Below, in pieces: positions 2,245 to 61,446 of a stretch of 64,000 nucleotides of DNA (the first letter of the stretch is position 1; every line of letters starts with the position of its first letter). The stretch comes from Octopus vulgaris. Its lineage: Eukaryota. The notes beneath the pieces were generated by a model. The model made no database searches and had not been told where the DNA came from. It saw nothing but the letters and a program-made list of their open reading frames with translations. Location of the stretch: the NCBI GenBank assembly GCA_951406725.2, contig OX597815.1, forward strand, positions 69,006,001-69,070,000, in the 5' to 3' direction. Both the position numbers and the translations under genes were made by a program.

Positions 2245-2480
2245 AATTACAACTGCAATACACTAAAATTGGGTCAATACATTTGAGTAGGAATTTTTGG
2301 CACCACCACCACCACCACCAAAAAGGAAATCACAGTACAATAAAATTACTGGAATTTATGTCTATAGTCTCTGTTGCCATTGACTGCTCAAATAAACACA
2401 GTTATATGTAAGAATTCATATATGCTCTGGTTATATTGTTCATACAATTCTACATTAAATATATATACATTTATATATAT

Positions 2481-2680
2481 AGTTAATCCAAACATGAACA
2501 AAGAGAAAACACAATACGAGGGCGTGGAACAAGTATAGTGTTATTGGATGCTAAGGAAAGGAAAGAAAGGAGGATTTAATGTTTCGAGCGGAGCTCTTCG
2601 TCAGAAACATAGAAAAAGGAAAGGTCTAAGGAAGGGAAGATAGAGAAAGAAAATTACCAACGATACACACGCGGTCACAT
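2481..2680 (-). mobile_element. Short microsatellite-anchored element with a minimal hammerhead ribozyme motif (copy 1)
   Basis: The minus strand of 2571-2610 reads GUUU-CUGACGA-A-GAGC-UCC-GCUC-GAAAC-AUU-AAAU. The element abuts a TA tract. Confidence 0.7.
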
Positions 2681-12509: not shown

Positions 12510-14060
<1,551 letters not shown>

Positions 14061-20728: not shown

Positions 20729-21984
20729 CGAGGGACGTTCAATAAGTAATGCCTCTGACCCACTTGCAGTTGTTTGATCTAGCTGAAATTTTGCATGTGC
20801 AATCATTTATATCTCTATAGAGTAAGTGGCAAATTACAGCTCTGAATTAATTGTGGTTTCTGATTTACAGGTGTTTGAACCGAGTCAAGTGTGAAATGGA
20901 GCCTGTTGAGTGTCGAGCAGTGATCCGGTTTTTGTATTTGAAAGGACGCACACCACGGGAGACTTTTGATGAAATGAAAGTAACTTATGGTGATGATGCC
21001 CCATCATATGACCTTGTAAAACGCTGGCATCGTGAATTCAAACATGGTCGGAACTCTGCCATTGATAAGGCATCTGTCCGTCAAGTTGAGGCTGCCATTT
21101 TGGAAGATCGATGCATAATTATTTGCCAAATAGCCCATGAGGTCAAGATTAGTACCGGGTCTGTGGAAACTATCATTCATGACCATTTGCATATGCAAAA
21201 GGTGTCTGCCAGATGGATTCCCAGGTTGCTCACGCCTTTCCAGAAGCAAGAACGCGTCGAGTGCTCGAGGGTGAATTTGGAGATGTGCCAAGAAGATGAG
21301 TCAAAATTTTTCAAAAGACTGATTACACAGGATGAAACCTGGGTCCATCACGATGATCCAGAGACCAAAGCCCAGCCAATGCAGTGGAAGCACCATGACT
21401 CACCCCCTCCAAAGAAGGCAAGGGTGCAGCCCTCCGCTGGCAAGGTCATGCTCACAGTCTTCTGGGACCAGGACGGAGTAGTGATGACAGATTTCCTGGC
21501 AAAGGGTACCACAATTGCAGGAGCCTATTATGCTTCACTTTTGAGGAAATTAAGAGAAGTTATCAAAATCAAGAGGCGGGGCAAGATCAGCAAAGGTATC
21601 CTCCTCCTGCAGGACAACGCTCCGGTCCACAACTCGCTTGTCGCCAGATCAGAAGCACAGGCGTATGGCTATGAACTCCTCCTCATCCCCCCTACTTTCC
21701 TGACCTTGCACCCTATGATTTTCACCTCTTCTCAATCATGAAGTTGTTTTTGAAAGGCAAGCATTTCCCAGATGATGCAGCCTTGATTTCTGAAGTCATG
21801 TTGAGGTTAGAGGACCAAGCTGGGTTCTTCTACAAAAACGGTCTCCAGAGCTGCATCAAACGATGGGAGAAATGCGTAACTCTGGGTGGTTCCTATGTAG
21901 AAAAAGACTAATAACTGTGCCAAGTTTCGTTGCTCTACTGCTATGGGAAGTGGGTCAGGGGCATTACTTATTGAACGCCCCTCG
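20729..21984 (+). mobile_element. Near full-length mariner (DD34D) transposon, irritans/Bytmar-like
   Basis: TIRs CGAGGGACGTTCAATAAGTAATGCCTCTGACCCACTT / AAGTGGGTCAGGGGCATTACTTATTGAACGCCCCTCG. TA on both sides; 1256 bp. Confidence 0.96.
20896..21911 (+). pseudogene. Mariner transposase with a 1-bp frameshift near 21680
   Basis: Motifs WIPRLL, TQDETW and LQDNAPVH. After the frameshift the frame reads PHPPYFPDLAPYDFHLF...RWEKCVTLGGSYVEKD*, giving D34D spacing. The usual RSGRP linker is missing after GRNS. Confidence 0.93.
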
Positions 21985-46574: not shown

Positions 46575-46723
46575 CACATTTTTTCCTTTTTCCATCCTTT
46601 TCTGTTGAAGAGCACGGGCTCAAAATGTCAAAGACTTTTCCATTTTCCCCAACATCAAACTAATACACCTTGCTTGTTGTTCCCTCACCTGTCTCTGCCT
46701 TTTGTTTTTTGTACATTTGAACT
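46575..46723 (+). mobile_element. Related hammerhead-bearing element (copy 2, CpG-decayed)
   Basis: UUUU-CUGUUGA-A-GAGC-ACGG-GCUC-AAAAU-GUC-AAAG at about 46598-46633. The downstream 90 bp align with copy 3. Confidence 0.6.
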
Positions 46724-47649: not shown

Positions 47650-48841
47650 CAGGGGTTGGACAAATTAATGGAACACCTAAAAAATGTCAAGCAAATTTAT
47701 TTTAATATGGGGTAGGACTGCCTTTGGTAGTAATTACAGCTTGAATTCTATGAGGTATGGACTCATACAAAGTTTGAATTGTTTCCAAAGGAATGTTCTT
47801 CAGCTAAAACAGTCTCCAGTTCTTATAGTGATGATGGTGGAGGATATCGACTCTTTACTTGTTTTTCTAAAATGCACCATAAATGTTAAATAATATTGAG
47901 ATCTGGGAACTTTGGTGGCCAGATAAGATGTTCAACTTCACTAGAATGTTTTTTGTGCCATTCAGTAACAACTTTATCTGTGTAAATTGGTGCATTATCA
48001 TCATGAAAGATGGCATTTCCCTCTGGAAACAGTTCCGCAATCATAGGATGAATTTGATCAGATAAAATGCTTAGTCTTGACTATTAATTTTGCCATGAAA
48101 GGAAACCATTGGGCTAGTGGATTTCCAAGATATAGCCTCCCAGATCATCACAGATCCTCCATGTTTAACAGTTGGAAGAAGGTAGTCTGGGTCAAATACT
48201 TCTTTTGGCTGTCTCCGTACGTATACTCGGCTGGTGGTCAGAAGTAAGGTAAAGGATCACTCGTTTAAGAAATTGACATTCTTCCACTGCTCTGGGGACC
48301 AATTCTGTAGGTTTTTATTCCACTCTAAACGCTTTACAATGTTTGTTTTTAAAAGTAGTGGTTTTCTGATTGCAGCCCTCCCATGAAATCTGGCTTTGTG
48401 TAGCTCCTGGTGAACAGTTTTTGTGGAAACTGGGTTCTGAAGGTGGTCATTAAGCTCTGCAGTAATTTTGGGAGCTGAAAGTTTTGGTTTTCTTCCAGAG
48501 TTTTGTTTCAACAAGGTTTTTTCCTCTTTCTCAAAGGCTGTCATTACTTTCGAGACAGTACTTCTTGATACACCAAACATTTCGGCTGATATTGGTATGC
48601 TAGTGCCTGCCATACGAACACCAACAATTTGACCTCTTTGAAAGTCTGATAGATCTGTCATTTTAATGAATTTTAGTTGCCTTTTTCTGATGATATCTGA
48701 AAAGAAACAGCAATTTTAGCAAAACATATTAAGCAACACTATAATAAATCAAAAAACATAAAAATAAACAAGCTTTTGACGGCTTTATAGATATTTCAAA
48801 ATTATGATGCTAAGTGTTTCCATTATTTTGTCCAACCCCTG
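47650..48841 (-). mobile_element. Tc1-type transposon with DD36E spacing (Incomer-like), decayed
   Basis: TIRs CAGGGGTTGGACAAA.TAATGGAA(A)CAC at both ends, TA on the left. Minus-strand transposase MTDLSDFQRGQIVG...TVKHGGSVMIW...FHDDNAPIYT...WPPKFPDLNII*HL, with 36 residues between D and the E position (now TAA). Confidence 0.92.
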
Positions 48842-61280: not shown

Positions 61281-61286
<6 letters not shown>

Positions 61287-61446
61287 GAATTTACAAGAAA
61301 AACAAAATGAAGACAGGTGTGTAAACAACAAACAGATGCGTTAGTTTAATGCTCAGGAAGTGAGAAAGTCTTTTACGTTTCGACAGAAAGGAACACAGAA
61401 ATAAACAGGGAGAGAAAATAGAAAAAGGTTTAGTGGCTAGTGATAC
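61281..61446 (-). mobile_element. Related hammerhead-bearing element (copy 3, stem II deleted)
   Basis: Minus strand CUUU-CUGUCGA-AAC-GUA-AAAG at about 61369-61390. Directly abuts (TA)n. Confidence 0.6.

What the first reader, a model, noticed from the sequence alone, without database searches (positions are those of the whole stretch)
2481..2680. Microsatellite-anchored short element family carrying minimal hammerhead ribozymes (three copies in 64 kb)
Seen: the minus strand reads GUUU CUGACGA A GAGC-UCC-GCUC GAAAC AUU AAAU, a type I hammerhead layout (stem I, CUGANGA, stem II, GAAA, loopless stem III, NUH, stem I'). Two diverged relatives (46575-46723, 61281-61446) keep this layout while the flanks differ. 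Stem II is GAGC/GCUC with a different loop in copy 2, and stem I covaries (GUUU/AAAU versus CUUU/AAAG). Copies 1 and 3 abut (TA)n at the same end. Established: minimal hammerheads with a loopless palindromic stem III occur in Penelope-like element pLTRs and non-LTR retrozymes, and are thought to cleave as dimers. Inference: this is a non-autonomous, Penelope-mobilised, (TA)n-targeting ribozyme retroelement family in octopus. In copy 1 the cleavage-site G appears lost by a CpG transition.
Basis: partly seen in the sequence, partly recalled or inferred. Interest (0 to 1): 0.75.

Follow-up and report, generated by a model that had tools for sequence, protein, structure and literature searches.

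The report
Penelope retrotransposon end with minimal hammerhead
This is the detached 200-base end piece of a Penelope-type jumping gene, one of many thousands of such ends in this genome, and it carries a mutated copy of a small RNA motif predicted to cut itself, a feature already known for this class of elements.

Summary
Copy 1 (2482-2680, minus) is real: a minimal type I hammerhead layout in a 199-bp repeat ending in (TA)n. It is not a separate non-autonomous family. It is the solo terminal repeat (pLTR) of a coding Penelope-like element with RT, CxxC linker and C-terminal GIY-YIG (Neptune/Nematis type). The same end lies downstream of the endonuclease region in 25 of 39 loci and upstream of the 5' ORF in 17 of 29. 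The genome holds 18,943 such 3' ends against 46 exact internal junctions. Copies 2 and 3 belong to two other families and do not keep the layout (G12A; 15-nt deletion). Copy 1 lost G16.2, breaking the dimer palindrome. Minimal hammerheads in PLE pLTRs and as dispersed truncated copies are published, so this is a new member of a known kind. What adds value is a sister subfamily at 99.6% identity, likely still active. Its insertions are scarless, longer than one unit and mostly inside (TA)n, and whole families carry fixed core changes (U4C, A6U). That suits a test of what PLE hammerheads do. Cleavage is untested. The scan's notes held no look-alike of this sequence.

The parts
2482..2680 (-). 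Copy 1: solo pLTR of PLE family A, 199 bp, 5' end at -103 from the predicted cleavage site, 3' end ...GGATTAAC
   Evidence: the same sequence flanks both ends of coding PLE copies
2574..2608 (-). Minimal type I hammerhead layout: stem I GUUU/AAAU, CUGACGA, extra A, stem II GAGC/GCUC with UCC loop, GAAAC; predicted cleavage between 2578 and 2577
   Evidence: layout as defined in PMC4209133
2580..2580 (-). G16.2 to A (CpG transition); breaks the ACGU palindrome needed for the predicted dimer stem III
2456..2481 (-). TA-rich 3' flank ((TA)5, then degenerate); inferred target microsatellite
   Evidence: family-wide pattern
46575..46722 (+). Copy 2: 3' end of family C; hammerhead remnant 46598-46633 with A6U, G12A, C15.2U; no (TA)n tail; link to an ORF not shown
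61283..61445 (-). Copy 3: 5'-truncated 3' end of PLE family B; hammerhead remnant 61370-61390 with a 15-nt deletion of stem II and core
   Evidence: RT+EN ORF directly upstream of the B end in L043/L062 and L059/L063
61233..61282 (.). (TA)n array abutting the 3' end of copy 3

Best explanation
Copy 1 is a solo pseudo-LTR, the 5'-truncated 3' end of a protein-coding Penelope-like retrotransposon, likely inserted by the element's own reverse transcriptase and GIY-YIG endonuclease at a nicked TA tract, and its hammerhead is a predicted dimer-cleaving ribozyme that in this copy is likely dead. Shown: the full element reads pLTR(HHR) - T(T)TATATAC - 5'UTR - ORF (RT, CX4CxxC linker, C-terminal GIY-YIG) - long CA-rich 3'UTR - pLTR(HHR) - (TA)n. 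Solo ends outnumber internal junctions by some hundreds to one. Inferred: the endonuclease nicks (TA)n, and the DNA end pairs with the short U/A tract that follows the pLTR in the RNA and primes cDNA synthesis. Most reactions stop after about 200 nt, near a conserved motif about 100 nt upstream of the cleavage site, giving solo pLTRs; rare ones run on through the ORF into a second, partial unit. Also inferred: in the parent transcript the hammerhead is held off by a competing hairpin (UUUC with GAAA) and would cut only when two copies pair through ACGU, perhaps with protein help.
For: Linkage: a same-strand A end lies 0.3-1.9 kb downstream of the EN region in 25 of 39 non-seed loci (one more has 22 nt only). 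Chance is about 1% from the 18,943 ends in 2.8 Gb. An A end lies upstream of the 5' ORF region in 17 of 29 non-seed loci. In 9 elements whose two pLTRs gave a usable alignment they are 93-97% identical; two more alignments (L177, L181) were artefactual. Protein P0001 (626 aa open frame, L172) has YIDD, CSRSRCNTC and LIYCIKC..YIGQT, with Pfam RVT_1 E 1.6e-3 and GIY-YIG E 0.025, both below the curated cut-offs. It has 1,024 homologues at E<=1e-20; of the 120 listed, the four that carry a species name are two gastropods, a sea urchin and a coral. Junction: TTTATATAC-type in 17 of 20 near-full-length loci, with 46 exact copies genome-wide. Of the first 100 listed 3' ends, 38 begin TTT and 44 TATA, and about 96 run into (TA)n (hand count). 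In the young sister subfamily 10 of 12 3' ends keep the junction's TTATA and 12 of 12 run into (TA)n; 7 of 9 resolved 5' flanks are (TA)n. 5' ends of copies found with a 3'-only query: family A 15 of 30 at -95 to -113, 7 longer, 0 within 4 nt of the cleavage site; family B 7 of 30 at -100 to -110 (seeds included). Short copies interleave with 5 ORF-linked ends in a tree. In an intact copy the competing hairpin scores -7.1 kcal/mol against -3.0 for stems I+II. PMC4209133 describes exactly such min-HHRs in pLTRs and as dispersed single motifs 'probably related to truncated PLEs'.
Against: No cleavage data. 13 of 39 EN loci had no A end downstream. The tree is star-like and its short copies were picked for likeness to copy 1; several columns differ between the short set and the nearest 12 ORF-linked ends, which mix subfamilies, so a hidden short master is not strictly excluded. 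The pile-up near -100 is not seen in upstream repeats of young full-length copies (-174 to -1692). In family A that pile-up coincides with an AT-rich stretch, so microhomology with the target could explain it. Family C gave no ORF hit in 1.5-kb flanks of 30 loci or in about 8-kb flanks of 5 loci. Clade rests on the linker motif only; no reference PLE tree was built.
Confidence: 0.88

Rival explanations
1. An independent non-autonomous element (SINE-like or non-LTR retrozyme) that replicates from its own short master and borrows PLE enzymes.
For: Large excess of solo ends (18,943 against 46 exact junctions) and a shared 5' boundary near -100. A few head-to-tail short tandems exist (L026; three A ends at the 3' side of L166).
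Against: The identical sequence is the pLTR at both ends of coding elements. Truncation lengths form a continuum out to the ORF. Short and ORF-linked ends intermix. Retrozymes are tandem arrays with canonical type I HHRs (PMC7229834 passages), whereas these copies are mostly dispersed singletons with minimal HHRs.
Confidence: 0.07
2. The motif is a hammerhead relic kept as a structural hairpin or protein-binding signal, not as a working ribozyme.
For: Whole families carry core changes: A6U in B/C (2,235 exact copies), and U4C in older A copies and in the youngest subfamily, which also has a U-U mismatch in stem I. PMC3088659 passages report low activity for A6C and reduced in vitro activity for U4C. 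The monomer folds into a non-hammerhead hairpin. No 5'-end pile-up at the cleavage site. In the anole PLE, HHR mutants did not affect insertion in vitro (PMC11167929).
Against: C3, G5, G8, A9, G12-A13-A14, the ACGU palindrome and a GUH triplet are kept in the majority of every family examined, and stem I keeps pairing through one compensatory change. The same paper notes that U4C keeps enough activity in vivo for a viroid. The anole PLE HHR cleaves when protein is added.
Confidence: 0.25
3. Solo pLTRs arise by recombination between the two pLTRs of full-length copies, like solo LTRs.
For: Direct terminal repeats of 93-97% identity exist. Recombination or deletion was suggested for solo pLTRs in a rotifer (PMC3846280 passage).
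Against: Variable 5' truncation inside the pLTR and inverted 5' pieces (L006, L099) fit aborted reverse transcription. A ratio of hundreds to one is hard to reach by recombination alone (inference).
Confidence: 0.05

Closest known systems
Minimal hammerheads in pLTRs of metazoan PLEs (Cervera and de la Pena 2014, PMC4209133; parts 1-2 of 4 read: results, discussion, start of methods; supplements not opened)
   Same: Type I layout, no loop 3, palindromic 15.2-16.2, extra base between A9 and G10.1, G10.1-C11.1 pair, location in pLTRs, thousands of dispersed single copies in several consensus families, predicted dimer cleavage.
   Different: Helix II is 4 bp with a 3-4 nt loop (7-8 bp in the Schistosoma examples). 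Families are fixed for U4C or A6U rather than U3-A8. No cephalopod example in the parts read.
Neptune/Nematis-type C-terminal EN+ PLEs (Craig et al. 2021, PMC8557442; abstract and passages seen)
   Same: RT, then CX2-5CxxC linker, then GIY-YIG with cysteines inside the core; pLTRs; partial tandems; microsatellite bias attributed to the linker; canonical HHR.
   Different: Long (1-3 kb) CA-rich 3' UTR and very strong excess of solo pLTRs. Neptune versus Nematis not resolved here. Not a Naiad, since EN is C-terminal.
Poseidon PLE of Anolis (Frangieh et al. 2024, PMC11167929; parts 1-2 of 4 read)
   Same: AT-rich target, reverse transcription starting downstream of the upstream pLTR, no reads ending at the HHR site, protein-assisted HHR.
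   Different: There RT starts about 111-118 nt into the ORF at a site not homologous to the target and leaves a 30-40 bp tail. Here the end maps to a short T/A tract right after the pLTR that matches the (TA)n target, and the end varies by only 1-2 nt.
Metazoan non-LTR retrozymes (Cervera and de la Pena 2020, PMC7229834; passages seen)
   Same: Short, hammerhead-bearing, high copy, suspected PLE mobilisation.
   Different: Retrozymes are non-coding tandem arrays with canonical HHRs and circRNAs. This is part of a coding element and is mostly single-copy per site.

Membership tests
EN+ Penelope-like element (C-terminal EN) | Single ORF with RT followed by GIY-YIG endonuclease | tested here: met
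   P0001 and the 949-aa ORF in L296: RVT_1 then GIY-YIG, both below Pfam cut-offs, motifs clear
EN+ Penelope-like element (C-terminal EN) | pLTRs from partial tandem arrangement | tested here: met
EN+ Penelope-like element (C-terminal EN) | Hammerhead motif within the pLTR | tested here: met
Neptune/Nematis clades | CX2-5CxxC linker between RT and EN | tested here: met
   CSRSRCNTC in P0001; definition from PMC8557442
Neptune clade proper | RT phylogeny with reference Neptune elements | not testable with these tools
   no named reference PLE proteins among the 120 listed homologues
Minimal type I hammerhead (PLE type) | CUGANGA, extra N, G-C closed stem II, GAAA, palindromic 15.2-16.2, NUH, stem I | tested here: met
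   Met by the family A majority (2,230 exact copies). Copy 1 itself fails the palindrome (G16.2A). Copies 2 and 3 fail the core.
Minimal type I hammerhead (PLE type) | Covariation of stems | tested here: inconclusive
   1 of 8 pairs with a two-sided change, 5 never vary; 11 hand-picked related rows
Minimal type I hammerhead (PLE type) | Self-cleavage as dimer | not testable with these tools
   needs in vitro assay
Non-LTR retrozyme | Non-coding unit independent of an ORF-bearing element | tested here: not met
Non-LTR retrozyme | Tandem arrays of short units with canonical HHR | tested here: not met
   mostly singletons (4 of 30 loci have a further related end within 1.5 kb); minimal HHR
Non-LTR retrozyme | Abundant circRNA | not testable with these tools
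   only assembled contigs of uncertain RNA status were offered

The most novel reading that the evidence does not exclude
This lineage records the PLE replication cycle unusually clearly. Reverse transcription starts in a short U/A tract right after the pLTR, paired with the (TA)n target. Most products stop at a fixed point about 200 nt later, giving strong-stop-like solo pLTRs by the ten thousand. Successful ones go round a closed or pseudo-closed template: scarless head-to-tail junctions, upstream partial copies up to 1.7 kb or more, trimers, and both repeats of one insertion sharing private variants. A weak, self-silenced hammerhead (U4C or A6U, conserved off-hairpin, ACGU palindrome shared by all families, so heterodimers are possible) would then be the switch that makes the circle. 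The 99.6%-identical subfamily with a 949-aa intact ORF would be a live system in which to show this.
Probability: 0.3. Interest if true: 0.7.

Novelty: new member of a known kind. Interest (0 to 1): 0.4.

Why it matters
As filed, it matters modestly. It reassigns tens of thousands of short octopus-type repeats, which look like SINEs or retrozymes, to Penelope pLTRs. PMC13282606 lists many unclassified SINE families and has no passage with hammerhead, ribozyme or Neptune; whether these repeats are among those families I could not check. The open question it touches is what PLE hammerheads do in vivo and how pLTRs are regenerated: PMC2377424 says there is no obvious mechanism, and PMC4209133 proposes circles. 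A near-identical, likely active subfamily with clean insertion footprints and natural core variants makes that question directly testable.

Tried and rejected
Rfam scan: no hammerhead among the 80 window matches at E<=5, which is expected for minimal motifs. Whole 199-nt copy 1: no unusual folding (z 0.11), so no retrozyme-like rod. Idea that solo copies start at the cleavage site: rejected (0 of 30 within 4 nt in A, 0 of 30 within 25 nt in B). Selection on the core among genomic copies: non-CpG change 11/570 in the core against 120/4774 in flanks, no clear difference, as expected for dead copies. Intron in the pLTR as in D. virilis: none of 7 listed joints had GT..AG ends. Expression: no RNA holder listed. 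Four contig sets of guessed RNA status cover the pLTR far more deeply than the ORF side, but contigs cannot show level, ends or circles. Target-site duplication at copy 1: none visible. No PLE ORF remnant in the window. Family C ORF link: no hit. Host gene around copy 1: none recognised from long frames. Lunse et al. 2017 on PLE hammerhead dimers is not held, so I saw it only as cited in PMC6765202 passages; core variants it may list, including A6U or U4C, could not be checked. Not-in-print basis: searches for hammerhead+Penelope+Octopus, Penelope+Neptune+Octopus and hammerhead+cephalopod returned only PMC8557442 and PMC11662667 (the latter seen as a listing only). Repeat libraries (Repbase, Dfam) and paper supplements were not examined and may hold these families.

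Full report
Observation. It is the only core match in the window, with 0 in 100 shuffles. A search of G000 gave 3,226 first-look candidates, and 30 fetched loci align as a ~200-bp family (A) ending GGATTAAC(TA)n with majority core CUGACGA A GAGC UCC GCUC GAAAC GUU AAAU. The exact canonical 30-mer occurs 2,230 times, control 0. These 30 copies, chosen as the best hits, differ from their majority by 3.7% on average, 12% at CpG sites against 2.5% elsewhere. Copy 1 has 11 differences, one being G16.2 to A at 2580, which breaks the ACGU palindrome but is not the cleavage nucleotide.

Copies 2 and 3. They belong to other families, C and B, whose restored core is CUGUCGA (A6U; 2,235 exact copies for B and C together, control 0). 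Copy 3 has a 15-nt deletion of stem II and core. Copy 2 has G12A and C15.2U and no TA tail. So only one of three window copies keeps the layout. Across 11 hand-picked rows from six or seven variants, 98.9% of cells pair, but only one pair changes on both sides and five never vary. Covariation support is thin.

What the element is. Following longer copies upstream led to ORFs. L020/L061 (family A) and L043, L059 (family B) carry RT and GIY-YIG remnants ahead of the hammerhead end. Using the family A endonuclease region as query, 25 of 39 non-seed loci have a same-strand A end 0.3-1.9 kb downstream, across a CA-rich 3' UTR; 13 have none and one has 22 nt. With 18,943 A-type 3' ends in 2.8 Gb (control 81), chance is about 1%. 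Using the 5' part of the ORF, 17 of 29 non-seed loci have an A end just upstream. Of 20 such loci fetched at 10 kb, 17 show the junction pLTR-TTTATATAC-5'UTR. In 9 elements with a usable alignment the two pLTRs are 93-97% identical; two further alignments (L177, L181) were artefactual. The exact junction occurs 46 times. [quoted passage not shown] By PMC8557442 (passages) that linker marks the Neptune and Nematis clades. The 200-bp repeat is therefore the pLTR of a canonical coding PLE. In a tree of 34 short and 18 ORF-linked ends, five ORF-linked ends fall among the short ones, though resolution is poor.

A young sister subfamily. Searching G000 with P0001 returned 70 scored matches, 66 without a stop inside. 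Fifteen stretches covering 12 elements (plus one locus of the older type) show 6.2-kb units, 99.2-99.6% identical, including a trimer on C10 and a dimer on C16. L296 has an uninterrupted 949-aa ORF. In the other copies the long frame does not reach back to that ATG; I could not tell real indels from assembly errors in the C-rich part. Their hammerhead has CCGACGA (U4C), GUC and a U-U mismatch in stem I. All 12 3' ends run into (TA)n, 10 keeping the TTATA of the internal junction. 7 of 9 resolved 5' flanks are (TA)n, and upstream partial copies reach -174 to -1692 and beyond. Repeats within one insertion differ by 1.5 substitutions on average against 4.4 between insertions (17 versus 236 pairs, 0 of 5,000 permutations), with exceptions such as L304.

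How it likely works. Shown: layout, target, junction and end sequences. Inferred: the endonuclease nicks (TA)n, the nick pairs with the U/A tract after the pLTR, and reverse transcription copies the pLTR first. Two end registers (38 TTT and 44 TATA among the first 100 listed, hand count) occur even within single elements. With a query limited to the 3' 91 nt, 15 of 30 family A copies start at -95 to -113 and none at the cleavage site; in family B, 7 of 30 start at -100 to -110. A similar motif sits there in A, B, C and the young subfamily. Run-off at a transcription start is my reading, by analogy with the pLTR promoter of D. virilis Penelope (PMC2377424 passages), but microhomology with the target is an alternative. 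Scarless multimers and homogenised repeats need a template that continues from the 3' pLTR into the 5' UTR: either a circle as proposed in PMC4209133 or repeated homologous strand transfer. The data do not separate these. The hammerhead monomer prefers a hairpin that pairs UUUC with GAAA (-7.1 against -3.0 kcal/mol). The UUU strand is invariant across variants while its stem I partner varies, which fits an off state released by dimer or protein, as seen for the protein-assisted anole HHR (PMC11167929). In copy 1 the palindrome is lost and no partner lies near, so it is likely inert.

Comparison and novelty. Minimal hammerheads in PLE pLTRs, and thousands of dispersed single copies from truncated PLEs, are described in PMC4209133. 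PLEs in octopus genomes are known (PMC13282606, part 1 of 3 and passages; PMC8967140 passages), and neither text mentions hammerheads. My searches found no paper on cephalopod PLE hammerheads. Repeat libraries, supplements and Lunse et al. 2017 were not seen. The retrozyme reading fails on independence from an ORF and on tandem arrangement. The scan's notes held no look-alike by sequence and none by words; notes on the same genome concern rewired Naiad hammerheads and true retrozyme arrays, which I did not test.

Verdict. A real feature, partly misdescribed; a new member of a known kind; interest 0.4, mostly for the young subfamily as a test system.

Noticed in passing
G000:C16:15990178-15993027 minus (L296:1179-4028); arrays at C10:97.805-97.825 Mb and C16:15.98-15.99 Mb: Young sister PLE subfamily, 99.2-99.6% identical 6.2-kb units, one intact 949-aa ORF, trimer and dimer arrays; likely active.
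   Followed up: yes
L279, L280, L281 (G000:C1): A-type and B-type ends sit head to tail, the second in the TA tail of the first. At least 5 pairs lie within 2 kb among the first 100 exact hits of each on C1, against about 0.3 expected (hand count). All share the ACGU palindrome, so heterodimers are conceivable.
   Followed up: partly
L283 (G000:C4:101.39 Mb): 75 nt of another family's pLTR end is fused to a 5'-truncated family A element at a short microhomology, suggesting a template switch.
   Followed up: partly
L095:1855-2056 and L005 upstream flank: Further pLTR variants with cores CCGAAGA and CCGAUGA and different stem II loops; more PLE families than the three in the window.
   Followed up: no
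L006, L099, L130, L169, L302: Inverted A ends adjoining elements, the inverted 5' arrangement known for PLEs.
   Followed up: no
L035 and window 61370-61390: The same 15-nt deletion between short direct repeats occurs in copy 3 and L035; recurrent or a small sublineage.
   Followed up: no
window 20851-21740 plus; fragments at 48715 minus, 31092 minus, 7685 plus: A 296-aa frame resembling a mariner transposase, two Tc1-like fragments and an RTE-like RT fragment (by eye; labels recalled, not scanned).
   Followed up: no
window 12638-14057: A 1.4-kb degenerate (TA)n array.
   Followed up: no
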